The notes: generated from the sequence alone by a model not told the origin. A stretch of 60,536 bases of DNA, filler included, from Sphacelaria rigidula (GCA_964200075.2; 7 parts of 7 records of this genome joined end to end with filler, not necessarily neighbours in it), one strand, 5' to 3'; counted from the whole stretch's first letter, positions 2,456 to 60,536 are shown. Numbers and translations: made by a program.

Positions 2456-4765
2456 CTACCATGTATCAGGCGTCCGAGGAGAAGGGGTAGAGACTCCTAG
2501 CTCCAACTTCACGTTCGAATCCTCGCCTGCCTCTTCGAAAACCACGTAATCAAAAACGCCCATGCGTCCATGTACCACCGCCGGCGAAGTACTGAGCCAC
2601 CCCGTACGTTTGCTGCTCCCGACACTCGAAGAGGTATCCTGCTCGCGACATCGCCTCACCCCATCGCCAGCGTGTGTATGAGAAGGGACTGCCAGCTCTA
2701 CCTTCATTCCTGCTCCTGCCCCCAAAGTCATCTCACCATCAGCCCTTGAAGGTGGGTATCCCAAGAGCAACGGTGTTCGTACACCCTGCCTGAGACCGGC
2801 ACACCCTCTACGATGAGCACCAACAGCGTCGCTTCCAACAGGACCCAAGAATGCCGCACGCTTGCGTTTCGTTCCGCGTGCATCAGCAACGCTTCCTCCA
2901 CCACCCTCCGCCGGACTACGGCTGTAGGCATCCTTCTCAGAGTTGAGCTTCGTGGTGTCGGACATCCCATCTGTGTTGTGAGCATTCGCATGCTGTGGGC
3001 AAAATGTTCCCTTACCTACGCTGTGCTTCTTGTGGACAGCAAACTTGGAGCACCCCTGTTCACTGCACTTTTCGTTCACCACAGTCACCATTGCCGCCCT
3101 GGCATGCTCGGAGCAGAACTCCGCCTTCCTGCTTCCAACTAATCCAAATGACGGCTTCTGAGAGCAGCCCTCGTCGCCGCACTTCTTGCCTCTCCTGCTT
3201 CCCGCTACACCATACGACGGACGCGTAGAGTAGCCCTCGTTGCCGCACTTCTTGTTTACCACGTTCACCATTCCCGCCGTGGCATGCGTAGCGCAGAACT
3301 CCGCCTTCTTGCTTCCCGCTACACCATATACCGGATGCGTGAAGCAGCCCTCGTCGCCGCACATCTTGCTCACCACGTTCACCATTCCCGCCTTGGCGTG
3401 TTTGGAGCAAAACTTCGCCTTCCTGCTTCCCGCTACACCATATGACGGACGCGTGGAGCAGCCCTCGTCGCCGCACATCTTGCTCACCACGTTCACCATT
3501 CCCACCGTGGCATGCTGGGAGCAGAACGCCGCCGATCTACTCCCCACTACACCATACGATGGCTGCTTCGAGCAGCCCTCGTCGCCGCACTTCTTGTTCA
3601 CCACGTTCACCATTCCCGCCTTGGCGTGCTTGAAACAGAACTCCGCCTTTTTACTCCCCGCTACACCATATGATGGTTGCGTGGAGCAGCCCTCGTCGCC
3701 GCAGTTCTTGTACCTTAAATTTAGCATTCCCGCCCGGGCATGATCGGCGCAAAACCTCGTATTTTTGCCTCCCGCTACACCATACGACGCCTTCGTAAAG
3801 CAGCCCTCGTAGCCGCACCTCTTTTCCATCACATTCACCATTCCCGCCATGGCGTGCTTGGAGCAGAACTCCGCCTTTTTGGTTCCCGCTGAACCATACG
3901 ACGGGCGCATGAGGCAGCCATTATGGCCGCACTTCTTGTTTGCCACGTTCACCATTCCCGCCCTGGCGTGCTTGCAGCAGAACTCCGCCTTTCTACTCCC
4001 CAATACACCATACGACGGCTTCGTGAGGCAGCCCTCGTAAGCGCACTTCGTGGCCTTTGCATTAATCAAACGCACCATTCCTGTCGTGGCATGTTTGGAG
4101 CAGAACTCAGCCTTCTTGCTCCCCGCTACACCATACGACGGATTCGTGGAGCAGCCCTCGTGGCCGCATTCCGTGGTCCATAGATGATCCATATCCACCT
4201 TGGCATGCTTGGAGCAGAACTCCGCCTTCTTGCTCCCCGCTACACCATACGACGGCCTCGTGGAGCAGCCACTGTGACCGCACTTCTTGGCCCTTACATT
4301 CACCATTCCTGCCTTGGCATGCTCGGAGCAGAATTTTGCCTTGGTTCCCGCTACACCATACCAAGGATGCCTGGAGCAGCTCTCCACGCCGCACCTCTTG
4401 GCCTTCACATTCACCATTCCTGCGCTGGCATGCGTGGAGCAGAACTCCGCCTTCTTGCTTCCCGCTACACCATAAGCCGGATGCGTGAAGCAGCTCTCGT
4501 AGCCGCACCTCTTTTCCACCACATTCACCATTCCCGCCCTGGCGTGCTTGGAGCAGAGCTCCGCCTTCTTGCTTCCCACTAGACCAAACGACGGCCTCGT
4601 TAGACAGCCCTCGTAGGCGCACTTCCTGCCTACCACATTCACCATTCCCGCCCTGGCGTGCTTGGAGCAGAACTCCGCCTTCTTGCTTCCAACTACACCA
4701 AACGACGGCTTCGCGAAGCAGTCCCCGTCGCCGCATTTCTTGCTCACCACATTCACCATTCTCAC
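2456..4765 (-). CDS. EsV-1-7 domain (C-x4-C...C-x2-H repeat) protein, IMM/EsV-1-7 family; single long exon
   Basis: 769-aa ORF with ~16 tandem ~38-aa repeats, consensus CGxEGCxxxPSYGVAGSKKAEFCSKHAxAGMVNVVxKK, followed by a low-complexity tail containing KRKR. Track start is GTG; first ATG is at 4759. Confidence 0.9.
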   Translation of the reverse strand: MRMVNVVSKKCGDGDCFAKPSFGVVGSKKAEFCSKHARAGMVNVVGRKCAYEGCLTRPSFGLVGSKKAELCSKHARAGMVNVVEKRCGYESCFTHPAYGVAGSKKAEFCSTHASAGMVNVKAKRCGVESCSRHPWYGVAGTKAKFCSEHAKAGMVNVRAKKCGHSGCSTRPSYGVAGSKKAEFCSKHAKVDMDHLWTTECGHEGCSTNPSYGVAGSKKAEFCSKHATTGMVRLINAKATKCAYEGCLTKPSYGVLGSRKAEFCCKHARAGMVNVANKKCGHNGCLMRPSYGSAGTKKAEFCSKHAMAGMVNVMEKRCGYEGCFTKASYGVAGGKNTRFCADHARAGMLNLRYKNCGDEGCSTQPSYGVAGSKKAEFCFKHAKAGMVNVVNKKCGDEGCSKQPSYGVVGSRSAAFCSQHATVGMVNVVSKMCGDEGCSTRPSYGVAGSRKAKFCSKHAKAGMVNVVSKMCGDEGCFTHPVYGVAGSKKAEFCATHATAGMVNVVNKKCGNEGYSTRPSYGVAGSRRGKKCGDEGCSQKPSFGLVGSRKAEFCSEHARAAMVTVVNEKCSEQGCSKFAVHKKHSVGKGTFCPQHANAHNTDGMSDTTKLNSEKDAYSRSPAEGGGGSVADARGTKRKRAAFLGPVGSDAVGAHRRGCAGLRQGVRTPLLLGYPPSRADGEMTLGAGAGMKVELAVPSHTHAGDGVRRCREQDTSSSVGSSKRTGWLSTSPAVVHGRMGVFDYVVFEEAGEDSNVKLELGVSTPSPRTPDTW

Positions 4766-6720
4766 CGTGGTATGCTGGAAACAGAAGTCCGCCTTGTTGT
4801 GTGATTCGTGAGACGGCGGCTTGGAGCAGCCCTTGTTGATGCACGCTTTTCTCTAGATATCAACCACCCGTTCCTGCGCGTGCTCCTTTGAAAACGAACT
4901 GCTGATGGTAGCACAAATACCAAGACAACGGGAAATATACCTCGTGAGCCACGGGTGTAAGCGTGTTGAAACGCTTGCAGAACGAGTGACATTGTTATTA
5001 CGGCACAACTCTGGAGAAACAGCAGCTGCCAGCATTCAACCAGACGACGCTCCATTTAAGCTGACCTCAACACCTTAGGCGTTACTCGTAAGTGATTACG
5101 GCGAATGGGACGGCCTGTACACTCTTGGAGACGAGATCGGAAGCGAATGAAGCACTAGCGTAGTACAGTAGCAGAATAGTCGTGTTGCAGAAAACATGTG
5201 AAACACAATTCCAATGTCACAGCACACCCAGCCATATCAAAGAGAGATGACACATTGATGTATGCCAAAATACGAAGATCAGGATTTGCAGACCAGGCAG
5301 AACGAGCCAGTTAAAAAACGTCGAGCAAATCGAAGAGCAAGACAACATCATCGACAGAGTGAGCAATCGCTATGCAGCATCACATACACAGAACGGGATG
5401 CTCGTCGTGGGGGGCGATCGGCTTTCATGTTCGACACCGCCAATAAAAATGCACGGGTCGTATCATGGCTTGGGACGAGGGTCACGATGATCCTGAACTA
5501 CTGGACGGGACAACTCCTAAGCGGACATTTATTTCATGTACCGCAGGTGCCATTGCGGTGACCCTGTGAGCCACTACGTAAAATCAGTTCCTCATCCATG
5601 TCGAAACTCCTTGATGACAACGTCGATACAAATGAAAGGTTGTACATATATCGGTGTCCAAATCATACCAGCGAGGATGTGCTAAAACGTGTAGATGTAA
5701 GATCAGTTGTGGCAAGACCTGAAATCGCTGAGCGGAAACCTACCTATGTGTTTCGTGCTATTAGCACCACTCTACGGCCTCTGGCAAAGTTTCAGAAATG
5801 CGAGTTGTGCAATGAATGCTTCCGCTAGTTGAAGAGTTGTGGTTCCTTCCAGAGCATTGAGAGGTATACCTCCGTCGTGAAGCCAGAACTGAAACAGAAG
5901 CTAGACAGTGGATTTGAATCTAGAGTATTGCAGTAAACACTGATGCCATTCCCACCATACACACTGGGTCTACATGGCACCATATGCTACGACAACGCCG
6001 AGACGCACTACAGGGACATGGTTGATGCAACAATACCGGCGGAGGAAGGTCCAGCAGATGCACGCTGGCGTGCGAAGGTATCTGCGGGCGCATGGTCCGA
6101 ACGAGCTGCATGTTTTCATCTCCCTGCTGGGCGTTCTTGGTCTCACAAAATAGTAGGGGTGTCCCAACATCGTAGGCAAAACGTGTTGCAGTCAAAAACA
6201 GCATCCTAGATGGACACAGCAACTCGAGATGCACTATCGAAACACGATCGGTGCGTCGGCTGTGTGATGTCTACAAAATCTCATCAGGTATGCGCCGGCG
6301 TGGAAAAGGAGTACTTGCTTCCCGCAATTTGATGTTTTGCGAGCGTTGTACAGAATCGATACGGTTTTTGATCGTATGTAAGATGTTCATTACAAGAGGC
6401 CGCATATACAAAGGCATCTGATGTTCATCGCCATGGTACGAATGAGCTGCTGTGGTGCGCCGTGTCATGACCCCCGTTGCTGTTCATATGATGCAGTGAT
6501 GAGACGACACATACGTCGCCATATACATCGTGCTTGACAGGGTAGTATGTGACGTCGGCACGTGTATACTGCGCGGGCAATGAATTCAAAGACAAGAATC
6601 AAGTTTGGTGCAAGTCGATGAATCCTGAGCCTACACGGCTCACACGTGTTCAGATAGCGCCCTGAACACCATCACGCTGACAACTTTTCGTGATGCTTTG
6701 TGGAGTTCCCCGGCGTGGAT

Positions 6721-8563: not shown

Positions 8564-8663
8564 NNNNNNNNNNNNNNNNNNNNNNNNNNNNNNNNNNNNN
8601 NNNNNNNTTAATTAATTAANNNNNNNNNNNNNNNNNNNNNNNNNNNNNNNNNNNNNNNNNNNN
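8564..8663. other. Artificial contig linker N44-TTAATTAATTAA-N44
   Basis: 100-bp spacer with stops in all six frames, repeated six times in the window. Confidence 0.98.
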
Positions 8664-10686: not shown

Positions 10687-11219
10687 AACGACCAAGAGAG
10701 TATAGCCCCCTGCTACGAGTAGTTGGCCCGAGGACACGAAAGATCAGAGCGCTTGTGTGCCGGAGCTCACGAAGATCCAACGAGCATGTGTGAACATCTT
10801 GCCGACACACACGCCAGCACGGCATCACGCGGTGACAATGTCAGACCGTTACGGGATCTGCATATTTTTGCGGCTCGGAAACAAAGATGGGCACCGACCG
10901 GATTACGGATTGGAGGAAGAACGCCTGAATCCAATGACGTGAACTGTACAATCCATGTACAATTTAACGATCTCTTACAGAACAGCAAAACCTGGAAAAT
11001 GATCATGGTTTTTGACTCATCATACCCTGGACAATATATTGCATTGTCACAAGTTGTACTGCGGACAGCATTGACTCTTGCGTCTATTGCAACAATAAAC
11101 CTTTGGACATAGCCATCTATTGTCCAGGGTGTTCAGGATATAGAGTAAGATTCCAACGGTACGCTTTTTTCCCATCTCAGGGTCCACGGTAGTACTCAGT
11201 ACTCCAGAGTACCCGGAGT

Positions 11220-11254
<35 letters not shown>

Positions 11255-12014
11255 CGGGCGGCCACTGCGACATCGCCCCCGCAACACNNNNNNNNNNGGG
11301 CCCCTTTTTCCCCCCCCCCGGGCCCCCGGTAGTACCCACTCCCCCAAAGCCCCCGGGCTCCCCCCCCCCCCCCCCCCGCGCAAAATACTCGATCGGTGTA
11401 CCCAGTATTATACGCAGTACCTCCGAGGACCTATTGAGCTTCCGAACGCTCGAGGGGCCTACCCCACGTGACGGCCACGAGGCGGTCTAGCCGAGGCACT
11501 GGGTAATCGGCACACAAATCCGCGTGCGGGGTAAGTGTGTAGTGAGGTTTCCTCCTTCCTTCTGAGGGAAGAAATTTCGTCATTTTGAAAAACAGAATGC
11601 AGAGAATCATAGGTATTCCAGAGTAGCCGGAATATTGACCACCAAAAATACCAAGGTTATGTTCTGTAAGGTGCGGTTTTCTTTATACTGATGGACTACC
11701 CTCGTGGTACAAAGGTTAAGCTCAACTGACTATAGAGCTGCCAGTGCACAGCCCTACAAAAACGCGTTCTGCGCACGCTAGGAGCACGCTAGGAGCACGC
11801 TAGGAGTACAGCCCCCATTAAAGACCCGGGTTTCGGTGTCCACGTAAACAACGAATCGGTCGAAGAAACGCTTGTCGAGTGGTGAACTCTACTCGACAAT
11901 GAGGTGCATGAGTATCACGAATATTGGAATGTCCTACCCAGTTCACCCAAAATTTCACGAGGATCTCCTGCACGCTAGTTGGAAATTCTCAGTTTTTGAC
12001 GGAAATCAACGTAT

Positions 12015-13209: not shown

Positions 13210-13426
13210 GCTCATAGGAGATAGATGGTGGCCACAGACGGCGAAACAAGGCAGGGATAAAATATGTGAAATATTTTTTTGTGTAATGTACGGAAGAAAC
13301 GTGCTGAGCACCGCAATGTTGGAGGTTTCTCTATTAGGAGTGGGAACGGTGCTCCGTCTCGAAAGGGATGCGTGGTCAATGGTCAAACGACCAAGGCAAG
13401 CAACAAATGAGCACTCCCCCCCCCCA
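13210..13426 (+). mobile_element. 5'-truncated LINE (subfamily A) 3' end with C-tract
   Basis: Encodes GDRWWPQTAKQ and ends GCAAGCAACAAATGAGCACT(C)n; homologous to 35590-35793 and 54922-55370. Confidence 0.85.
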
Positions 13427-17226: not shown

Positions 17227-17326
17227 NNNNNNNNNNNNNNNNNNNNNNNNNNNNNNNNNNNNNNNNNNNNTTAATTAATTAANNNNNNNNNNNNNNNNNN
17301 NNNNNNNNNNNNNNNNNNNNNNNNNN
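17227..17326. other. Artificial contig linker
   Basis: N44-TTAATTAATTAA-N44. Confidence 0.98.
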
Positions 17327-25889: not shown

Positions 25890-25989
25890 NNNNNNNNNNN
25901 NNNNNNNNNNNNNNNNNNNNNNNNNNNNNNNNNTTAATTAATTAANNNNNNNNNNNNNNNNNNNNNNNNNNNNNNNNNNNNNNNNNNNN
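25890..25989. other. Artificial contig linker
   Basis: N44-TTAATTAATTAA-N44. Confidence 0.98.
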
Positions 25990-34551: not shown

Positions 34552-34651
34552 NNNNNNNNNNNNNNNNNNNNNNNNNNNNNNNNNNNNNNNNNNNNTTAAT
34601 TAATTAANNNNNNNNNNNNNNNNNNNNNNNNNNNNNNNNNNNNNNNNNNNN
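34552..34651. other. Artificial contig linker
   Basis: N44-TTAATTAATTAA-N44. Confidence 0.98.
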
Positions 34652-34729
34652 GTCTCTTGCAATAGGCGCAATAGTCGATACTGTACGCAGTACACTTTTT
34701 GACTGCGTATTCTTTTGTCCACGGTATGT

Positions 34730-34888
34730 GCGACTCGCCGAACAAACCACGGCGCTTGGCGCTTGGTGATCAAGTGCGAGCCTAGTCCGGCGAGAACCTA
34801 GAGTGCTCCGTCCCGGCTTTGTTGGGATGCGAGGTCAATGGTCTTAGGACTATGGCATGCATGATCATGAGTACCCTCCCCCCCCCCC
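34730..34888 (+). mobile_element. LINE subfamily B 3' end with C-tract
   Basis: Ends GGATGCGAGGTCAATGGTC...GCATGCATGATCATGAGTAC(C)n; second copy at 36122-36280; homologous to the subfamily A end. Confidence 0.7.
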
Positions 34889-34911
34889 TGCGCACACTTT
34901 GGAAGCCCCCC

Positions 34912-35793
34912 AACGAGTAATACAGTATTGAGAGCAGAATCGGGAGTGCACCCACTTACAACAAACAGAGGCATGAAGAAATGAAGATGGCAATATAGCG
35001 TGAAGAACATGCAGAGAAAGAGATTGATAGCCATAGTTGATATTGTCGTATGGGAAAAAGTGACGAAAGGGCAGGGTGGAATGAGGTGGGATAGAGAGGT
35101 CGAGAAAGTATGGAAGGAGATAGGAGGAAACCAAGACGAAATACTGTCCATAGGTGAAAGTGCGGGGTACAAAACAAAAGGAGGAGACATGATCGAAATA
35201 AGGGAAAAAGAAATGCTAAGACGCAAAGTAGACGAGGAAGAACATCTGAAGATATACGGGGAGTCGAGAGAGGGGATCGGGATGAGAACATATCTGCACG
35301 GCGCAATGGACGCGGTGAAAGATTTGAAAGTGCGATTTTCGGGTGGGGGACCTGGACCTGCCGGGAAGAAGAAAAAGATACTTCGTATACCAGTAGTCTT
35401 GTGGAGGAGGAAATAGATGCACAGGATTGCCCCTATGGCAAAGCAATACAGAGTAGAAATCATATAGTTGGAGAATGGGAACTAAACAATGAGGAACGGG
35501 ACGTGCTAGAGGGGGAAATGCGGGACGTGAACGCAGGTGGCATAAAATCGTTTGGTATATGAGACAGTAGGGAAAAAAGGACGGCTATACTAGGAGATAC
35601 ATAGTGGCAACAGACGGCGAAACAGGACGGGGATAAGATATGTAAAAGGTTCTTGTCGTGAGTGAAAGAAACGAAATGAGCACCCAAATGTAGAAGGTGT
35701 CTCTATTTGGAGTGGGAACAATGCTCCGTCTCGAAAGGGGTACGTGGTCAATTGTCAAACGACTAAGGCAAGCAACAAATGAGTACGCCCCCC
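34912..35793 (+). mobile_element. 5'-truncated LINE subfamily A (post-RT region and 3' end)
   Basis: Colinear with 54922-56030 (reverse); ends AAATGAGTACGCCCCCC. Confidence 0.9.
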
Positions 35794-36121
35794 TCAAGGG
35801 TTGACGTCGGTTGGCAACGACGCTGTAAAGCATGCCGCTCACTGCGTAAGCTAGGCAACCAGGTTACTGTTTAGTTTTCGCTTGCGTTTTCTTCGCGGTA
35901 ACCATGATGGTCGAGCTGGATCATGTTGTGCAGGGGGGAGAACCCGGACTTCGCGCAAAAGGAATGATGAGACACCCATGAGGCAGTGTTTAACCCATGG
36001 GTGCCTCTGAAAGTGGTGATACCAGAAGATGAAGCCATTCATCGCAGACTATCATCCATATGCAAGTCACGTCGTACACTTCGGGCCGAATAATCTTGGC
36101 AGGATGCAGCTCATCCTTCAT

Positions 36122-36280
36122 ACGACTCGCCGAATACATCACGGCGCTACGCGCTTGGTGAGTGACTGCGAGCTTGGTCCAGAGGAAACCTGATGCGCTC
36201 CGTTCGGTGTTTGTAGGGATGCGAGGTCAACGGTCTGATGAGCGCAGCATACACGATCATGAGTACCCCCTCTCCCTCCC
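36122..36280 (+). mobile_element. LINE subfamily B 3' end
   Basis: Similar to 34730-34888; ends GATCATGAGTACCCCCTCTCCC. Confidence 0.7.
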
Positions 36281-36375
36281 GCCTGTAGAAGCTACCTTGC
36301 CCTGTCGAAGCATCGGGAGAGCAAATAATACCGTTGCCCCGATCTACCGATGCCCTATGGCATGATGGTGCTTAC

Positions 36376-43213: not shown

Positions 43214-43313
43214 NNNNNNNNNNNNNNNNNNNNNNNNNNNNNNNNNNNNNNNNNNNNTTAATTAATTAANNNNNNNNNNNNNNNNNNNNNNNNNNNNNNN
43301 NNNNNNNNNNNNN
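43214..43313. other. Artificial contig linker
   Basis: N44-TTAATTAATTAA-N44. Confidence 0.98.
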
Positions 43314-50243: not shown

Positions 50244-51214
50244 GACAGCTCGGTACAGCACGAGTAGCTTCCCATAAGTAATAATTATTCCGATGTCAGA
50301 AGGTCATGGATTATCACAACTCGAAAGGAGAGACGAGAGTGCTCTACGATCAACCGCATGTCGTTGCATTCGAGACCCACGCCATCAACCGCCGACAGCA
50401 AGGGTCTTGTGGCTTTCACGCGACGCTGTCGGCAGTACGCCAGGCAAACCGGATCATAGCTACCTCCCGTCTGCGCAGTGGTGGTCACACTAACAGACTA
50501 CACCGATTTCGCAACACCTGTGAAAGCTGGACAGTTTGATTTTCATGAGCTATATGCACATGATGAAAACGGTTCTGAAAACCTGAGGGAAGGTGTCCGC
50601 TTCAGGTCCAGTGAAACATCAGAAGAAACTGTCCAACGGCAAAAGGCAACTTTTCGGGCATCGGCGTCGAACACTGCTCGAACAACGGAACATATTTCGA
50701 CAAGTTAATGTTCGTATCAGAAACCCATGCGCTTGGAACACTTTGCAGCTTCGAAGACACAGATTTTGATGGAAAGAAACTTCTCCGGGCCCCCATGTGT
50801 GTTGTACCCCCCTGTAAAAGCCGTTCCTCGTTCATCGATGCCTGGCTGGGGGACAGGGAAGCCATGCTCCCTAAGGTTTTGGGAACCGTTTTCATCTTGT
50901 GCCTGCAGCTCATGCAAGTCAAACTCTCTAGCTTTCACAGGTCTTGCGAAATCGGTGTAGTCTGTAAGTGTGACCACCACTGCGCAGACGGGAGGTAGCT
51001 ATGACCCGGTTTGCCTGGCGTACTGCCGACAGCGTCGCGTGAAAGCCACAAGACCCTTGCTGTCGGCCGTTGATGGCGTGGGTCTCGAATGCAACGGCAT
51101 GCGGTTGATCGTAGAGCACTCTCGTCTCTCCTTTCGAGTTGTGATAATCCATTACCTTCTGACATCGGAATAATTAATACTTATGGGAAGCTACTCGTGC
51201 TGTACCGAGCTGTC
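50244..51214. repeat. Large inverted repeat, ~345-bp arms with ~270-bp spacer
   Basis: Arms 50244-50590 and 50866-51214; mirror ORFs 50285..50488(-) and 50970..51173(+) are near identical. Confidence 0.95.
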
Positions 51215-51425
51215 TGTAATGAGTGAGAGGACCGCGTGCTTAGAGGACCGCGCTGTAGTTCAAAATACCTCAGGATCGACGTTTTTCGAAACCAATCGGG
51301 TCAGTCCCCGCAGGTACCACGCCCCTGACCCTAACCCCAACATTAACTCTAACCCTAACCCTAACCATAGGGGTATTCAAATTCCGATGCGGTCCTCTAA
51401 GCACGCGATCCTGTCACGCATTACA
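51215..51425. mobile_element. 211-bp MITE with TGT...ACA ends and an internal telomere-like tract
   Basis: ~37-bp TIR TGTAATGMGTGAGAGGACCGCGTGCTTAGAGGACCGC and internal CCCTAACCCTAACC; reverse copy at 55014-55224. Confidence 0.85.
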
Positions 51426-51875
51426 ATGACTGCATGGAAGATGTTTTGAGAACTTTGAACGGTGGCAAATGTGAGCTGTTGAAGCATCGTGGGGAGGTTT
51501 TAGTTTGGATCATTTACAAGCCCTGTTTCGTGCGTGAGTGTGGCTCAACACAACGGCTGTATTGTGTGTGAACGGACAACAGGACAACAGACGAAATCGT
51601 TTCCCCTGGAGAATGGAACAGTCAACCCTTCACCCCGCCCCAGAATGATATATATATATATATATGTTGTTATATATATGTGTTCATGTGTCAAACACGG
51701 GATCCTACAAATTGGGGATGGATCTATTCTTGGGGATGAGAAATCCAGAGATTTAAAATCTTCGTATCCACACCAACTCTTCGAAGTATGGTTCCATTTC
51801 TTTACCTACTGATAGCTATTGACGACTGCGACACGCCATAGAAATATGGATTTCGATCACCGAAATGTTGAGGTC

Positions 51876-51975
51876 NNNNNNNNNNNNNNNNNNNNNNNNN
51901 NNNNNNNNNNNNNNNNNNNTTAATTAATTAANNNNNNNNNNNNNNNNNNNNNNNNNNNNNNNNNNNNNNNNNNNN
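51876..51975. other. Artificial contig linker
   Basis: N44-TTAATTAATTAA-N44. Confidence 0.98.
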
Positions 51976-54641: not shown

Positions 54642-55013
54642 CTGTGGTGAAAGAATGATTGAAAATGACGAGGCAGGAGGTGAAGTAAACGCACGTCGGG
54701 GTTTCATGAGCGCATCTGCGGATGCTCAAAATGCACTTTCAATGCTTGGCAATCGCAGGTTCCGGGCCGTGGCCGCATTGCGGTCTCTGAGAACGTTCGC
54801 TCAAAATGTTCTCTGAGAATATGGTGTATCCAGGAACCATCTTCTTGTTGTAGATGGTATGGGATAGGCTTGCCGTATGCGAAACCGCGATGAGCTCTGT
54901 TTCGAGAGGGCAGTGAGGGAGTGAGGGGGGGGGCGGGGGGCGTACTTATTTGTTGTTTGCCTTAGTCGTTTGACCATTGACCACGCATCCCTTCCCAGAC
55001 GGAGCACCGTTCA

Positions 55014-55224
55014 TGTAATGCGTGAGAGGACCGCGTGCTTAGAGGCCCGCATCGGATTTTGAACATCCCTGTGGTTAGGCTTAGGGTCAGGGTTAGTGTT
55101 AGGGTTATGGTCAGAGGCGTGGTACCTGCAGGGACTGGCCCGATTGGTTTTGAAAAACGTCGATCCTGCGGTGTTTTGAACTACGGCGCAGTCCCCTAAG
55201 CTCCCGGTCCTTTCACGCATTACA
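55014..55224. mobile_element. TGT...ACA MITE inserted in the LINE 3' end
   Basis: Splits LINE sequence GGAGCACCGTTCC; flanks GTTCA/GTTCC. Confidence 0.85.
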
Positions 55225-57182
55225 GTTCCTACTCCTAATAGAGACACCTCCAATATTCCGGCGCGCATTACGTTTCTTCCATACATTACACAAAACCTTC
55301 TACCAATCGTTTCCCCGTCCTGTTTCGCCGTCTGCGGCCACCATCTATCTCCTAGTATAGCCATCGTTTTCTCCACACTTTTAATGCGTCAAACAACTTT
55401 TCATTCCACCTTCGTTCACGTCTCACATTTCCCCCTCTAGTACGTCCCGTTCCTCCTTACACAGTTCACATTCTGCCACTGAATGACTTCCGCTCTATTT
55501 GCTTTACGACAGGGTTACTTCTGTGAATCTACTTCCTCCTCCTTTCGACGGCTGATATCTCTTTCTTCTTTCTGGCAGGTCCAGGTCCCCCACCCGAGAT
55601 CGCAGTTCCAGAATTTTCGCAGCGTCCATTGGGTCACGCAAATATGCTTTCATCCCTATCCCCTCTTTCAACCCCCCCGTATATCTTCTGATGTTCTTAC
55701 TCGTCTACCTTGCGTCTGAGCGCTCCTTTCCGCCCTATTTCCATCATGTCTCTTACTTTTGCCTTGTACCCCGCGCCTTCACCTATGGACAATATTTCGT
55801 CGTGGGTTCCTCCTATCTCTTTCCGTACGTTCTCGAGTACTCCCCACCTTATTCCAGCATTCCCTTTCGTCGTTTTCTTCCATACAGTCCTATCGACTAA
55901 AGCTGGCAATCGCTTTCTCTGCGTGTTCTTTACGCTATATTGCCATCGCAATTTCCTCATGTCGCTGTTTGTCTCCAGTAATTACATTCCCAACTCTGCT
56001 CTCAATGCTCTATTGCTCGTCGTTTTCGAGCGTCCAAGTATTTTCTCAGCTGCTGCCATCTATACTGAGTTCAACTTCTTCACCAACTTCACGTTCCCTT
56101 TCATCTCCTGCATATTCCAGCTTTGGTACGATCACGTTCATCAGGATACATCTCTTGATCCTGGTGTCTAGGTGCGGGTCTCTGAGGATCACGTCCATCC
56201 TGCCTATCTGTGTCTTATCCTTTTCCATTACTTTGTTTATGTGTGCATCCGAAGAACAGTTTCTTGAGATCTCTACGCCAAGGTACGTACACTGGTCTAC
56301 GATCGGCAGTTCCTCTTCTCCCCGCTTCCATTTGAACTCTACCGGATTTTTCTTCTCTTCGTTACAGACGAGTACCGCGCATTTGTGGACGTTCGCTGTC
56401 ACTCTCCGTTTCCTAGTGTATTCTGGCGCCTTGTCTTTCTGTGTCTGTAGTCCTTCTGGTATCTCTGAAATCCCCACAAAATCATCTGCGAACATCAAAC
56501 CTGATATCACATCCTCACCCACTTTGACTCCTTGCTTTGCTGCTTCTATTGCTATTATCAGCTTATGAATAAAGACCTTGAACAAAGTGGGTGATAACGT
56601 ACATCCTTGTGCAACTCCTTGTAAAATATAAAAACATTTCTTTATTTTCCCCCGTCTAGCACCATGGCACTTTTGGCAGATTCTGTCATCTTCTTCACCA
56701 TTCTTCACATCTTTCCTCTGATTCCAGCTTCCCACAACTTTTCCCACAACCCATTCCTCTATACTGTGTCATAAGCCTTTTGCACGTCCAGAAAGAAACA
56801 ATACGTTCTCAGTCCGGTGTCTTTCCTACCCTGAATAACCCTACTTAGTATGTACACATGGTCTACGCAACTACGGTTTGGTTCGAAACCTGCTTGCTCC
56901 TCGCTGATTTTGTCTCCCTTTTCTAGGATCGTTCCTACTCTATCGTTCAGAATCTCACCGAACGTTTTCCCTACCGTGCTCAGTAGCGTTATCCCTCTAT
57001 TGTTTCCTGGGTCAGCCTTGTCTCTTCTTTTGAAAAGATTGACGACTACTCCTTCTTTTCACCTCTTTGGTGTGTCCTCGTTTTCCCAGATTCAGTTGTA
57101 CAGCATAGCCATCATGGCAATCGTTCCCTTTCCCCCAAACTTCAGAAATTCATTCACTATTCCGTCTGCCCCTGCTGCTTTT

Positions 57183-57213
57183 ATGACTATGGCATGCATG
57201 CTCATGAGTACAC
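57183..57213 (+). mobile_element. 31-nt ultra-truncated LINE-B 3' end
   Basis: ATGACTATGGCATGCATGCTCATGAGTACAC between 14-bp direct repeats CCCCTGCTGCTTTT (57169-82, 57214-27). Confidence 0.85.
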
Positions 57214-58365
57214 CCCCTGCTGCTTTTTCTGTTCTTGGGTTTAGCTACGCAATCCTTTACGTCATCTCTGTTGAATTTTCTATGCAATTCTTTCGAGCCA
57301 TTATCCTCCCGTTTTGACGTCTCTCCGCATTTGCCTCTGCCCACGCGTCGATTTCTTTTTCGAATTCTATGTCGAACTCCGTGGTTATTTCTGGTGTTCC
57401 TAGTTTACGGTAGTGCTCGACTAGCACTTCTCTCTTTTCCTTCGAACTACTGATCATTGCACCGTTCTGTGCCTGGAGTGTAGCTATCCCTTTATTCATC
57501 TTTCCTACCTGGTTTCTCGCTATCCCTTTTATCCCTACCCTCATTTGTTTCATCCCGCCATCGAAATACACATTTGTTTTATTCACAACATGTTACCATA
57601 CTTCCTTCTTTTTCTGCCGAACCATCTTTTTTACATCCTTTCGAGCTTTAGTACACTCCTCCCATCCTACCGTCGTTCTGGTCGATATCCATCTCGCGTG
57701 GGCCTTTCTCCTTACTCTTGTAGCCTCTTTCACTTCCTCATCCCACCATTTTACTGATCTGTTGCACACGATCAGTTTCTTCTACATGACTTTACTCGCT
57801 GTGTTTTTGACCATCTATTCCCATCCTTCTGTGATCTTCGCTCCTGCTCGATTTCTTTCCATTTCGATATCAACTGTTCCTAGGCGTTCCAAGAGTTCGG
57901 AAAATGTGACTGCATTTTCGGCTATCTCTTCTTAGAACTCTTGCCATTTTTCTTTTACAGCTAGTTTATCGATTCTCCATTTTTACAACTTTCTACCCCG
58001 CCTATTTCTTTCATCGTTTGTCTGTTGGCTTTCTGTCCATGTGAAACGATGATCCGTGATTCCCACGTCCTCCGCGCATACATGTACTTTCATTTCTTCA
58101 CTATTTCCATACTCCATCACTATACAGTCAAGAACGGGGCGTTCTATCTCGTTTTTGCACTCTCTAGTTCATGTCCATTGCACCTCTGGCTTTTTCCCTC
58201 TATCGTTCAGCGTCTTCATCTCGTAATGCTCGAGGAGCTTGAACATTTCTACCCCATTCGTGTTCTTCTTATTCTCCCCGTATTGCCCTATGATATCATT
58301 CGGTTGACCTGCTTTTCCTACCCTTGCATTAAAATCTCCCACTAACATTACTTCACCTTGCTACT

Positions 58366-58611
58366 ACACTTTCTACCATAGCCCTCCCCCAAAAGTGCCC
58401 GGTTTGGGGAGGAAAAATCTTCACGCCAATCAAAATGGAAAAAACCGGGTACAACGAACAGCTGGGAATTCTCACGCTTGGGTTCGCCCTCGCCAATGTC
58501 GCCCAAATGAGGCGCTTTATGCAGACTGAACCCGAACATCAGGCGCTTCATGGCCATCTGCTTCGTGACAGTTCTGGGCTGGTTTTTTGGGTGTGCTATC
58601 GCAGAAAGTGT
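58366..58611. mobile_element. ~245-bp TIR insertion in the LINE endonuclease region
   Basis: ACACTTTCTACCATAGC versus GCTATCGCAGAAAGTGT. It interrupts YKRQ/GEVMLVGDFN, with CTTGC duplicated nearby. Confidence 0.6.
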
Positions 58612-59189
58612 CTTGCCTTTTATACTTATGTACATCTGCTGCTGTCTCTCCACAGCTCCGTTGTATATCGTTCACCCTACTCTTCGATTCTGGGGGCATG
58701 TAGATTTTTCCTACGAAGAAATCCTTCGTTCCCCGCTGTCCTAGTCCCCTTATCCATATGCTCTCGTCGAATCTCGCGTTGTCGATCACTTCTTTACTGT
58801 AACATAGATATTCCTTGACTAAGGACCCTACTCCCCCCGCTCCCCAGCTGTTGAACTTCTGTTTCTTCCGCTTTTCCCCCATCCATGCGTACTCTTCAAC
58901 TTTGCATCCTATTTCCGCCCCCTCTTTCTCCCGTTACTCTTGGATTCGTATTAAATCTAGGTCGAGTTTATTCGCTTGTTGCGTTATCTCTTCTCTTCTG
59001 TGCTTGTCTATGACGAACCCACACATGTTCCACGATCCTACTCTTAACTACCTTTCCGAATCATCATCTGCTCTTGTGTTGTCTACTGTTCTGTCTCCGT
59101 CGCTTTTGCTTTTACTTTCCCCTGCTTGGTTGTTCTTCCTGTTTTTGCGTTGGTCTTTGTCACTTTGCTTTTGGCCGTTATGTCCCTTC

Positions 59190-59511
59190 CCCTTCCCCTT
59201 CCGGGCACTTACCTGTTCCTGCATTTCTCCCCCTCCGTTCACCCGTGGACAACGTTGTAGGTTTTTTGTTCCATCAGCTATGCATACTCTCCACCCTACT
59301 CTTCTAACTCATGCCGACACCTTACCTGCCTCTATCTTTTCTGCATGATCATGAGTACACCCTTCCCCTTCCGGGCACTTACCTGTTCCTGCCGTTCTCC
59401 CCCTCCGTTCACCCGTGGACAACGTCCTAGGATTTTTGTTCCATTACCTATGCATTCTCTCCACCCTACTCTTCTAACTCATGCCGACACCTTACCTGTC
59501 TCTATCATTTC
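59190..59511. repeat. 152-bp direct duplication flanking an 18-nt LINE-B 3' end
   Basis: 59190-59341 and 59360-59511 are separated by TGCATGATCATGAGTACA. Confidence 0.88.
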
Positions 59512-59755
59512 CCACGCCTTGCTCGCGCTCTGGTTTAGCGTGACTCGGAAGTGTTCTTCTTCCGTTCCTACTTTATTTCTCGCCAAGCAGTATGGTCCAA
59601 CTCTATTGCATCTCATTTTTCTTGTCATATGGCTACGAACTCCGAATCTCAGCACTACTAGTACTTTACCCGTCTACTTCTCCACCCGCCGTTCCTTACC
59701 GTCTCTCTCTCGACCTTTTTCGAGAGAATCTCTAGCTTCTTCGTTTCAATTGTAG

Positions 59756-60330
59756 TGGGGGGCGAGGGGGGGCGAGGGGGTGAAAGCATACTCACTTGTT
59801 GCTTGCCTCAATCATTCGACCGTTGACCACGCATCCCTTTCGAGGCGGAGAACTGCTACTACTGCTGGAAGAGACATCTCCAATATTTAGGCGCCCATTG
59901 CGTTTATCCGCAAATTACATGGGACGTTTTCCATACCTTATCCCTTCCTGTTTCGCCGTCTGCGGTCATCATCAATGTCGCCGTATTGCGGTCATTTTCT
60001 CCCTGCTACCTAATGTACCGGCCGATTTCATGTCACATGCGTTTAGGTCCTTCGTCTCCCACTGTAACATGTTGTGCTCCTCCTTCCACAGTTCGCTTTT
60101 TCCCACTGCATGAGCTCTACTCTCTGTTGCTTCACCCCAAGAGGAATTATTGCTCCGTCTCGAAAGGGATGCGTGGTCAATGGTCACATGACTAAGGCAA
60201 GCAACAAATGAGTACGCCCCCCCCCCAAGAGGAATTCTGTGTATCTACTTTCTCCTACACCAAACTACTGGTATAACAGTTTCCTCTCCCTGGCAGGTCC
60301 AGCTCCACACCCGAAACCGTACTTCCGGTG
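59756..60330 (-). mobile_element. Older LINE-A 3' fragment
   Basis: Similar to 54940-55620; G-rich (C-tail) end at 59756-59780. Confidence 0.8.
60149..60222 (+). mobile_element. 74-nt truncated LINE-A 3' end with poly(C) tail
   Basis: Ends AAATGAGTACG+C6; flanked by 14-bp TSD CCCCAAGAGGAATT (60135-48, 60223-36). Confidence 0.9.
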
Positions 60331-60536
60331 CTTTCACGTAGTGAGAGAGCAAGGGGTGGAGAAACTCTCCGTGAAGTGAGACCTCGATATGATAAAACGA
60401 ATGCAGGGCAACGGTGCAGTGACTGATGATAAATTACTCTAGAAAAACGAGACCCCCCCCCCCCCCCCCACACCCCCGTCCCGGGAGAACCCCGCGCGCC
60501 CCCTCCCCCCCTTCGCGCGGGCGACCCCCCCCGGGG

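What the first reader, a model, noticed from the sequence alone, without database searches (positions are those of the whole stretch)
54922..60236. LINE family with poly(C) rather than poly(A) ends that inserts at CCCC targets
Seen: every 3' end of the two related LINE subfamilies terminates in an ATGAGTAC-like motif plus a C-rich tract (13410, 34870, 35780, 36260, 54940 rev, 59790 rev, 60210), with no poly(A). Three insertions have clear TSDs (57169/57214, 59190/59360, 60135/60223), and each TSD begins with CCC(C) at the element's 3' junction. At 60217-60226 there are 10 C against 4 in the TSD, so 6 are extra. Established: L1 TPRT pairs its poly(A) with a T-rich nicked strand. Inference: this is a G/C mirror of that mechanism, with a nick exposing ...GGGG-3'OH that primes on a C-tailed RNA. 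It would explain antisense nesting in G-rich LINE bodies, head-to-tail stacking at 59756, and perhaps the frequent poly-C/G tracts that break this assembly. I do not recall this being described but cannot check the literature.
Basis: partly seen in the sequence, partly recalled or inferred. Interest (0 to 1): 0.78.

Follow-up and report, generated by a model that had tools for sequence, protein, structure and literature searches.

The report
Brown-alga LINE with poly(C) tail
A very abundant jumping gene of a brown alga ends in a run of C instead of the usual run of A and lands where the target already has a few C; this is real, but a 2025 catalogue of Ectocarpus mobile elements already notes it.

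Summary
The window (brown alga, Ectocarpus-like) carries an endonuclease/reverse-transcriptase LINE. Its reading frame stops inside the terminal ...AAATGAGTAC motif, 4-5 nt before a C-run. All nine 3' ends in the window have this motif followed by C-rich sequence and no poly(A). Five more A-type ends and two B-type ends with a readable tail, on unrelated contigs, do too.

Three nested insertions have target duplications of 14, 152 and 14 bp that begin with CCC(C). A contig from another sequencing study carries the empty site of the 60149-60222 insertion with four C. So six of the ten C at the filled site came with the element. In four runs of three studies, 58 to 1270 contigs per 3' end continue with about 11-22 more C.

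It shares only the last ~66-75 nt, which can fold into a compact structure.

Priming from a G-run at the nick onto a C-run in the RNA fits all six readable 5' junctions, but is inferred. The (C)n terminus, C-rich duplications and tandem copies are already listed for RTE-X elements in a supplement of PMC12477816. No long poly(C/G) tract here follows a LINE end.

The parts
54942..59756 (-). Full-length but decayed copy Y of the autonomous LINE (type A). It holds an APE endonuclease, a reverse transcriptase and a C-terminal Cys/His motif. The frame stops inside ...AAATAAGTAC.
   Evidence: tblastn of P0005 covers aa 13-1360 over 59670->54949. RVT_1 is found on two ORF pieces. The 5' end ACTACAA is shared with the intact copy L006, whose upstream flank is unrelated.
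54925..54941 (-). Tail of copy Y: G, C6, G, C9 on the minus strand.
55014..55224 (.). Nested unrelated insert with 46-nt terminal inverted repeats and degenerate TTAGGG-like repeats (MITE-like). It is not part of the LINE.
   Evidence: Inverted repeat found. Other copies of the LINE lack it: joint 55008->55225 in 16, 12, 14 and 3 contigs. A second copy lies at 51214-51429.
57183..57213 (+). 31-nt 3' fragment of the non-autonomous partner (type B), antisense in Y. It is flanked by the 14-nt duplication CCCCTGCTGCTTTT (57169-57182 and 57214-57227), with one C more than the target.
58366..58611 (.). Second nested unrelated insert with 29-nt terminal inverted repeats.
   Evidence: Inverted repeat found. 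Joint 58356->58612 in 24, 18, 15 and 2 contigs.
59342..59359 (+). 18-nt 3' fragment of type B (TGCATGATCATGAGTACA), antisense in Y. It is flanked by a 152-nt duplication (59190-59341 and 59360-59511, 93% identical) that starts with CCC. No extra C.
59757..60340 (-). Copy X, a 5'-truncated 3' fragment of type A. Its tail (59757-59783, C5 TCG C7 TCG C6) abuts the 5' end of Y. Its far end near 60340 is approximate.
   Evidence: tblastn covers aa 1246-1360 over 60136->59795. The model hit is at 59786-59854.
60149..60222 (+). Young 74-nt insertion: the last 68 nt of type A plus six added C. It lies antisense in X and is flanked by the duplication CCCCAAGAGGAATT (60135-60148 and 60223-60236).
   Evidence: Sequence and duplication. 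Empty site: X3 record 15 joins 60134 to 60223. Filled form: X1 records 7 and 8, with 0 differences.
13211..13425 (+). 5'-truncated type A fragment ending in ...ATGAGCACT plus C10.
34652..34888 (+). Type B copy B1, cut by the contig start. Tail CCT C11.
34904..35793 (+). Type A 3' fragment A2 (aa 1071-1360), preceded by CCCCCC and ending in G plus C6.
35794..36283 (+). Type B copy B2, about 470 nt plus a C-rich tail. Its start is approximate: the homology runs from 35798, directly after the tail of A2. No ORF homology, and no tRNA or Rfam head.

Best explanation
This is an abundant single-ORF, APE-type non-LTR retrotransposon of a brown alga, together with a short non-autonomous element that borrows its 3' end. 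It most likely belongs to the RTE-X elements catalogued in Ectocarpus.

The coding frame runs to within 4-5 nt of the element's end. The stop codon TGA lies inside ...AAA TGA GTAC. The last ~66-69 nt (75-77 in the partner) can fold into a compact domain: a closing stem GUGCUC/GAGUAC, a hairpin CGUCUC-GAAA-GGGAUG, and a nested GGUC-loop-GACU hairpin. This domain is the only part shared with the partner. A C-run follows it directly.

Inferred mechanism:
1. The element is transcribed through its genomic C-run.
2. The protein binds the structured 3' domain, as in sequence-specific ('stringent') LINEs.
3. The endonuclease nicks the bottom strand at the 3' side of a short G-run.
4. The exposed ...GGG(G)-3'OH pairs with the C-run of the RNA, and reverse transcription starts there.
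5. The new copy's C-run is therefore the target's own C plus 0 to many copied or slipped C.
6. Every copy ends up flanked by C-runs, so copies are themselves good targets. This gives same-orientation head-to-tail stacks and antisense nesting in the purine-rich sense strand of older copies.

Shown: the anatomy, the tail, the duplications, the C added at insertion, the stacking, and the shared 3' domain.

Inferred: the nick site preference, base-paired priming, slippage, and the role of the fold.
For: Protein and family.
- The intact copy L006 has a 1382-codon open frame, 88% identical to P0005, with no stops.
- Pfam finds Exo_endo_phos at 192-414 and RVT_1 at 762-1011.
- The nearest solved structures are L1 ORF2p and R2 reverse transcriptases.
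- The best named relatives are Ectocarpus proteins.
- P0004, P0005 and P0036 all end in ...NGAPSRKG(R/C)VVNGQMTKASNK, followed by the stop inside the terminal motif.

Tails.
- 12 of 14 complete 3' domains have at least 7 C in the next 12 nt, against a 2.3% background.
- This includes five copies on unrelated contigs: C8, C10, CCTC7..., C13 and C9TC9.
- Loose ends of contigs laid on the window continue with C. Behind 60226: 1270, 1111, 626 and 92 contigs in X1, X3, X4 and X6, with consensus C17-18 in X1, X3 and X4 and C11 then T in X6. Behind 57217: 645, 503 and 58 contigs in X1, X3 and X6, with consensus C18-22. X4 had no row shown for that place.

Addition at insertion. X3 record 15 (565 nt) lies without gaps on 59824-60134 and 60223-60476. 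The empty site therefore has one CCCCAAGAGGAATT (4 C), and the filled site has 10 C.

Target C-run at all 6 readable 5' junctions: 57169 CCCC, 59190 CCC, 60135 CCCC; L006 ...TTTCCC|ACTACAA; Y ...CCCCCC|ACTACAA; A2 ...CCCCCC|AACGAG.

Stacking.
- X-Y at 59756/7, and B1-A2-B2 at 34652-36283.
- The tail of L006 is followed directly by a B head.
- Joints that go back from 60223, 60224 or 60226 to 60151 occur in 25, 23 and 49 contigs of X1.

Shared 3' domain. The model built from type A alone finds type B copies at E 1.9e-13 to 0.004. 92.9% of cells pair, against 31-45% when partners are slid.

Type B is non-coding. There are no tblastn hits in it, and no tRNA or Rfam match.

Print. PMC12477816, Supplementary Material 3, lists RTEX-1 '(C)n 3'' and RTEX-2 '(C)n termini/TSD', with TSD 'C-rich'. 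It describes RTEX-N1 as nonautonomous, '60 bp 3' end 83% RTEX-1/RTEX-2', and 'can be present in tandem'.
Against: - No RNA 3' end was seen. All runs are contigs, and the one possible RNA run is only guessed to be RNA.
- Covariation for the fold is weak. Only 1 of 21 pairs changes on both sides, and the covariation score is 0.107 against 0.091 in shuffles, reached by 10 of 500. In type A the domain is also coding sequence. The alignment was fitted to the structure, which favours it.
- Only 3 insertions have unambiguous duplications. For L006, Y and A2 the 'duplication' is nothing but 3-6 C, which cannot be told from tail.
- The 152-nt duplication is 7% diverged, and I saw no empty form of it.
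- The empty-site contig could in principle be a paralogue rather than an allele. It is 98% identical over 565 nt.
- Membership in RTEX-1/2_Ec32 was not checked by sequence, because the FASTA supplements could not be read.
- Full length here is about 4.16 kb, against 5.5-5.9 kb for the printed consensus sequences.
- The type B relatives in G001 end in ...CGAGTAC with poor C-runs (L020, L023).
Confidence: 0.75

Rival explanations
1. The C-run is not a tail at all. The element ends at GTAC(N) and simply integrates into pre-existing C/G tracts, so every C is target sequence.
For: Two of the three nested insertions add only 0 or 1 C beyond the target's own (57213 and 59359). All six readable 5' junctions sit on C-runs.
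Against: The empty site of the 60149 insertion has 4 C and the filled site has 10. Hundreds to more than a thousand contigs continue with 17 or more further C after the element end. That is far longer than the 3-6 C seen at 5' junctions.
Confidence: 0.07
2. The extra C are not copied from the RNA. They come from untemplated addition of G to the nicked bottom strand, or to the cDNA start, by the reverse transcriptase before it engages the template.
For: Tail length varies widely between copies, from 0 to at least 13 on single copies and more in contig ends. Nothing in the data shows a C-run in the RNA. Untemplated addition is known for other retroelement reverse transcriptases (recalled, not tested).
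Against: Parent copies do carry genomic C-runs that would be transcribed. Target C-runs at every junction suggest that pairing matters. Other LINEs of the same catalogue carry (CAA)n and (CA)n tails, which untemplated addition cannot make, so templated repeat tails are the rule in this genome.
Confidence: 0.12
3. The poly(C) runs are sequencing or assembly artefacts at homopolymers.
For: The window has N10 gaps and contig ends beside very long C/G and T runs. Those may well be unreliable.
Against: The same motif plus C-run is found in five independent contigs from other assemblies. It is also found in contigs of four runs from three studies. Runs of 6-13 C lie well within what reads resolve.
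Confidence: 0.02
4. Types A and B are two autonomous LINE subfamilies.
For: The last ~66-75 nt are alike and both end in ATGAGTAC plus C.
Against: Upstream of that, type B has no similarity to the LINE protein. The complete B2 copy is only about 470 nt. B copies on other contigs are equally short and non-coding. The printed catalogue lists 188- and 607-nt non-autonomous RTEX-N elements sharing the 3' end.
Confidence: 0.04

Closest known systems
RTEX-1_Ec32 and RTEX-2_Ec32, with RTEX-N1/N2_Ec32 (RTE-X LINEs of Ectocarpus). Source: PMC12477816 Supplementary Material 3, read; main-text passages.
   Same: Both are from Ectocarpus-like brown algae. Both have a single EN-RT ORF, a (C)n 3' terminus and C-rich target duplications. 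Both have a very abundant non-autonomous partner that shares about 60 nt of the 3' end, has a head of unknown origin, and can lie in tandem.
   Different: Identity to the printed consensus sequences could not be checked, because the FASTA supplements are unreadable. Full length here is about 4.16 kb, against 5511-5867 nt. The paper gives only annotation notes: its main text does not mention the C tail ('c-rich' has 0 occurrences). It shows no empty site, fold or mechanism.
Stringent-type LINE/SINE pairs with a simple-repeat tail, such as eel UnaL2 with (TGTAA)n and the Drosophila I factor with (TAA)n. Source: passages of PMC3747384.
   Same: The LINE and its dependent element share a 3' end that can form stem-loops. 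A short repeat follows it. Reverse transcription is thought to start in the repeat, with slippage. There is no poly(A).
   Different: Here the repeat unit is a single C. The 3' domain lies inside the coding sequence, with a 3' UTR of 4-5 nt. There are no functional data for this element.
Human L1. Its TPRT primes poly(A) from a T-rich nick.
   Same: It is an APE-type LINE. The first bases of the target duplication match the tail, so the primer can pair with the tail. It shows 5' truncation and variable duplications.
   Different: Here the tail is C, not A, and the target is a G/C run, not T/A. The element-specific 3' domain shared with the partner argues for sequence-specific rather than relaxed template choice. 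L1 has two ORFs; this element has one.
LINEs that target the same microsatellite as their tail (Kojima and Fujiwara 2004; only the title was seen, in the reference list of PMC3747384; element names recalled), and Zepp of Chlorella, which inserts into tails of earlier copies (recalled).
   Same: The tail and the target are the same simple sequence. Earlier copies become landing sites, giving head-to-tail arrays.
   Different: Here 3-4 C are enough for a target, so insertion is dispersed rather than confined to arrays. The comparison rests on recall, not on a test.

Membership tests
APE-type non-LTR retrotransposon (LINE) | Apurinic-type endonuclease domain N-terminal to a reverse transcriptase in one ORF | tested here: met
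   On the intact copy (P0036), Pfam finds Exo_endo_phos at 192-414, Exo_endo_phos_2 at 301-436 and RVT_1 at 762-1011. RVT_1 is also found on the window copy.
APE-type non-LTR retrotransposon (LINE) | Copies share the 3' end and are truncated at varying 5' points; they have target duplications of variable length and no terminal repeats | tested here: met
   Copies of 18, 31, 74, about 215, about 890 and about 4160 nt all end at the same motif. Duplications are 14, 152 and 14 nt.
RTE-X clade (RTEX-1/2_Ec32) | Reverse-transcriptase phylogeny places it with RTE-X reference elements | not testable with these tools
   No reference RTE-X sequences are held. The FASTA supplements of PMC12477816 are unreadable. 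The assignment rests on matching annotation notes only.
RTE-X clade (RTEX-1/2_Ec32) | Single EN-RT ORF, (C)n 3' terminus, C-rich TSD, and a non-autonomous partner sharing about 60 nt of the 3' end | tested here: met
   compared with the notes read
RTE-X clade (RTEX-1/2_Ec32) | Consensus length 5511-5867 nt | tested here: not met
   Two independent copies begin at ACTACAA with unrelated upstream flanks, giving about 4.16 kb. This may be another family or species, or the printed consensus may hold more 5' sequence.
Stringent-type LINE/SINE partnership | The dependent element shares the LINE's 3' end | tested here: met
   The model built from type A finds type B copies.
Stringent-type LINE/SINE partnership | Conserved stem-loop in the shared 3' end, supported by compensatory changes | tested here: inconclusive
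   92.9% of cells pair, against 31-45% when slid. Only 1 of 21 pairs has a change on both sides, and 10 of 500 shuffles reach the covariation score. Loops differ between A and B (GAAA against 9 nt) while the stem arms are kept.
Stringent-type LINE/SINE partnership | The 3' end and tail repeat are required for retrotransposition | not testable with these tools
   Needs a retrotransposition assay.
L1-like poly(A)-dependent LINE | Poly(A) tail and T-rich nick site | tested here: not met
   No A-run follows any of the 9 window ends or the outside ends whose tails can be read. Duplications start with C.

The most novel reading that the evidence does not exclude
The brown-alga RTE-X machinery is a true homopolymer-C system. 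Its endonuclease nicks beside G-runs. Its reverse transcriptase needs an oligo(C) next to a 66-nt structured domain that lies inside the coding sequence. Each round adds target C to copied C, so tails ratchet up to tens of C. Tails and C-rich duplications then act as self-made landing pads that seed tandem arrays. On this reading they may also seed part of the genome's long poly(C/G) tracts. This would be the first LINE known to use a C tail, and a natural test of whether tail-primer pairing alone sets LINE target choice.
Probability: 0.3. Interest if true: 0.5.

Novelty: already known. Interest (0 to 1): 0.32.

Why it matters
A LINE whose tail and target are C/G rather than A/T is a rare natural variant of target-primed reverse transcription. 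It allows a direct question: is target choice set by pairing between the nicked strand and the tail, or by the endonuclease?

In Ectocarpus the RTE-X group is reported as the largest LINE group, with 16,418 copies making up 3.41% of the genome (PMC12477816). Its habit of creating and reusing C-runs could therefore shape repeat arrays and homopolymer tracts.

- an empty site showing that C are added at insertion;
- the stop codon lying inside the terminal motif;
- a candidate fold of the 3' domain shared with the partner;
- evidence for stacking at C-runs.

As a discovery it is modest, because the tail and the C-rich duplications are already recorded.

Tried and rejected
- Whole genome: none is held, so no genome-wide logo of tails and duplications could be made.
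- RNA evidence: no RNA holder was listed among the runs. X6-X9 are only guessed to be RNA. All laid runs are contigs, which cannot show RNA ends.
- Depth was not used to argue 5' truncation, because the tool says contig depth cannot rank parts of a stretch.
- Metagenome loci L001-L003 could not be extended, as their records are not held.
- Two viral-contig scans, with the type A and type B end patterns, found 0.
- The pattern TGAGTACNCCCC in the two contaminated genome bins G001 and G002 gave 4 places. One (L025) looks like chance, and one (L026) is a decayed type B copy.
- MAFFT alone misaligned the A and B stems, so I used a covariance model instead.
- The protein atlas gave only generic endonuclease/RT clusters without taxa.
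- Rfam and ARAGORN found no small-RNA head in type B.
- Literature searches for a C-tailed LINE found nothing relevant: and for RTEX tails. One search was too loose to be useful. Searching for 'poly(C)' as written is not possible in this tool.
- Long C/G tracts: upstream of the 11 tracts of 14 nt or more I found no 3' domain. Only 11221 follows a GGAGTA C-run, beside repeated AGTAC words, and this remains unexplained.
- A duplication for the 13211-13425 copy could not be defined.

Full report
**Setting.** The window is eukaryotic. It is a chain of contigs joined by N44-TTAATTAATTAA-N44 linkers. The reverse-transcriptase piece at 56046-56768 (minus strand) finds its best named relatives in Ectocarpus sp., at 47-56% identity. 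Unnamed full-length proteins P0004 and P0005 (1328 and 1360 aa) are 73-74% identical to it. An 798-codon ORF elsewhere in the window holds 17 EsV-1-7 cysteine motifs, which also fits a brown alga. No whole genome is held for this window.

**Anatomy of the region.** tblastn of P0005 maps one nearly complete but decayed element, Y, on the minus strand, covering aa 13-1360 over 59670->54949. Four things interrupt it:
- A 211-nt insert with 46-nt inverted ends (55014-55224).
- A 246-nt insert with 29-nt inverted ends (58366-58611). Other copies of the LINE lack both of these inserts, as shown by joints 55008->55225 and 58356->58612.
- Two tiny plus-strand fragments, of 31 and 18 nt, that are the extreme 3' end of a second repeat, type B.

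Upstream of Y on its own strand lies a 3' fragment of another copy, X. The tail of X abuts the first base of Y at 59757/59756. X in turn carries a 74-nt plus-strand insertion of the type A end (60149-60222).

Elsewhere in the window there is a type A fragment at 13211-13425. There is also a same-orientation row of B1, A2 and B2 at 34652-36283.

**The element.** An intact copy turned up on a 5259-nt contig that had been binned into a bacterial genome (L006).
- Its frame is open for 1382 codons.
- It has an endonuclease at 192-414 and a reverse transcriptase at 762-1011.
- Its nearest solved structures are L1 ORF2p and R2.

L006 and Y both begin at ACTACAA, with unrelated sequence upstream. The full length is therefore about 4.16 kb.

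The frame ends ...NGAPSRKGCVVNGQMTKASNK, and the stop is the TGA inside AAA-TGA-GTAC. The C-run comes next.

**The observation.** ATGAGTAC is over-represented: 8 occurrences against 1.47 expected. A covariance model of the last 69 nt finds 7 complete ends in the window and 7 more full-length hits in outside loci.

Of these 14, 12 have at least 7 C in the next 12 nt. Only 2.3% of the window's 12-mers reach that. The exceptions are a hit cut by its contig end (L018) and one decayed type B relative (L020).

Five outside type A copies show tails of C8, C10, CCTC7TCCTCCC, C13 and C9TC9. No end has an A-run.

The three target duplications are exact as claimed, at 14, 152 (93% identical) and 14 nt. 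They begin CCCC, CCC and CCCC.

**Genome-wide and empty-site evidence.** I laid the contigs of four public runs, from three studies, on 54800-60536.
- Behind 60226, the end of the type A tail, 1270, 1111, 626 and 92 contigs run on. Their consensus starts with 17-18 further C in X1, X3 and X4, and with 11 C, a T and 4 more C in X6.
- Behind 57217, after the type B end, 645, 503 and 58 contigs (X1, X3, X6) run on with 18-22 C. X4 had no row shown for that place.

So long C-runs after both ends are the rule and not a quirk of this window.

One contig of run X3 (record 15, 565 nt, 11 differences) lies without gaps on 59824-60134 and then on 60223-60476. It therefore carries the site without the 60149-60222 insertion and with a single CCCCAAGAGGAATT. 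Contigs of run X1 carry the filled form with no differences. The target thus had four C and the filled site has ten, so six came with the element.

The two other nested insertions add one and zero C beyond the target's own. The added number is therefore variable and can be nil.

**Target choice.** At all six 5' junctions that can be read, the flank next to the element or duplication is a C-run:
- CCCC, CCC and CCCC at the three duplications;
- CCC before the intact L006 copy;
- CCCCCC before Y;
- CCCCCC before A2.

For the last three the only 'duplication' is the C-run itself. In target-primed reverse transcription, the first bases of the duplication are the complement of the primer's 3' end. 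These junctions therefore mean a primer ending in GGG(G).

This fits pairing with a C-run in the template. It would equally fit an endonuclease that prefers G-runs. The data cannot separate the two.

**Stacking and nesting.** Same-orientation stacks at C-runs are seen in several places:
- X-Y and B1-A2-B2 in the window.
- A followed directly by a B head in L006.
- B followed by B about 110 nt later in L026.
- Joints in which a tail is followed by another 3' end, in 25, 23 and 49 contigs of X1. The letters in between are not known.

All three nested insertions are antisense to their host. The host's sense strand is purine-rich: GC skew on the plus strand is about -0.3. That is only three cases.

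**Type B is a partner, not a LINE.** Upstream of the last ~75 nt it has no similarity to the LINE protein. The complete copy B2 is about 470 nt. Copies on other contigs are equally short. It has no tRNA or Rfam match.

**The shared domain.** Several copies fold to the same minimum-energy shape:
- a closing stem GUGCUC/GAGUAC, which uses the terminal motif itself;
- a hairpin CGUCUC-GAAA-GGGAUG, which in type B is CGUCCC with a 9-nt loop and GGGAUG;
- a nested GGUC-loop-GACU hairpin.

On the model-fitted alignment, 92.9% of cells pair, against 31-45% when partners are slid. But only one pair changes on both sides, and 10 of 500 shuffles reach the covariation score. In type A the domain is also coding. 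I regard the fold as plausible and unproven.

**What is known.** A 2025 catalogue of Ectocarpus transposable elements (PMC12477816) reports RTE-X as the largest LINE group, with 7 families, 16,418 copies and 3.41% of the genome. It also reports a ~600-nt non-autonomous RTEX-N1 that shares its 3' end with RTEX-1 and RTEX-2 (passages).

Its Supplementary Material 3 (part 1 read) notes:
- RTEX-1: 'single EN-RT ORF; (C)n 3'', with TSD 'C-rich'.
- RTEX-2: '(C)n termini/TSD'.
- RTEX-N1: '60 bp 3' end 83% RTEX-1/RTEX-2' and 'can be present in tandem'.
- Other LINEs there end in (CAA)n or (CA)n.

The main text does not discuss the C tail ('c-rich' has 0 occurrences). I could not compare sequences, because the FASTA supplements are unreadable. 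The printed consensus lengths (5.5-5.9 kb) also exceed the 4.16 kb found here. Membership is therefore likely but not proven.

Passages of a review (PMC3747384) describe the general class: LINEs that recognise a specific 3' stem-loop shared with their SINEs and end in short repeats used for slippage, such as UnaL2 (TGTAA)n and the I factor (TAA)n.

My searches for any other C-tailed LINE found nothing.

**The long poly(C/G) tracts.** The window has 11 tracts of 14 nt or more. None follows a recognisable 3' domain. The 32-C tract at 11221 follows ...GGAGTA, beside several AGTAC words. These might be tail-only remnants, but that is a guess.

**Verdict.** The mechanism is a reasonable reading of the anatomy. 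It belongs with the known class of sequence-specific LINEs with simple-repeat tails, here with a one-base unit. The key descriptive facts are already in print for Ectocarpus RTE-X elements.

New here are the empty site, the stop codon inside the terminal motif, the candidate fold, and the evidence for reuse of C-runs as landing sites.

Noticed in passing
window 55014-55224 and 51214-51429: A ~211-nt repeat with 46-nt terminal inverted repeats (78% complementary) and an internal run of degenerate TTAGGG-like units. It is nested in the LINE copy and absent from other copies. It looks like a MITE, but its family was not determined.
   Followed up: partly
window 58366-58611: A ~246-nt insert with 29-nt terminal inverted repeats (79% complementary), absent from other copies of the LINE (joint 58356->58612 in 24, 18, 15 and 2 contigs). 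Probably another MITE.
   Followed up: partly
window 2459-4852 (minus strand): An open frame of 798 codons made of 17 EsV-1-7 cysteine-rich motifs (Pfam PF19114, E 1e-227). This domain is expanded in brown algae and their viruses.
   Followed up: partly
window 11180-11380: Several short (G)AGTAC words are followed by C-runs of 10 to 32, around an N10 gap (GGTAGTAC..CAGTAC..GAGTACCCGGAGTA plus C32). These might be tail-only remnants of the same elements or assembly noise at homopolymers.
   Followed up: no
window 8564-8663, 17227-17326, 25890-25989, 34552-34651, 43214-43313, 51876-51975; also 11288, 20208, 38931: Six N44-TTAATTAATTAA-N44 linkers show that the window is a chain of unplaced contigs. 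Three N10 gaps sit between very long C/G and T homopolymers, so sequence there is probably unreliable.
   Followed up: no
L006 (G002 contig 43) and L004/L007 (G001 contig 325): Brown-alga LINE contigs, one with an intact 1382-codon ORF, sit inside bins filed as bacterial genomes. G001 holds at least ten LINE-like matches. This points to eukaryotic contamination of those bins.
   Followed up: partly
L006 4192-4258 (minus strand): In the intact copy the frame is open from the first base of the element. It lacks the ATG with which P0005 starts. The first ATG lies about 48 codons in, so the translation start is unclear.
   Followed up: no
L006 about 4735-4800: Upstream of the intact copy lies an antisense fragment that resembles the LINE 3' domain but has a different terminal sequence. 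It is probably another subfamily.
   Followed up: no
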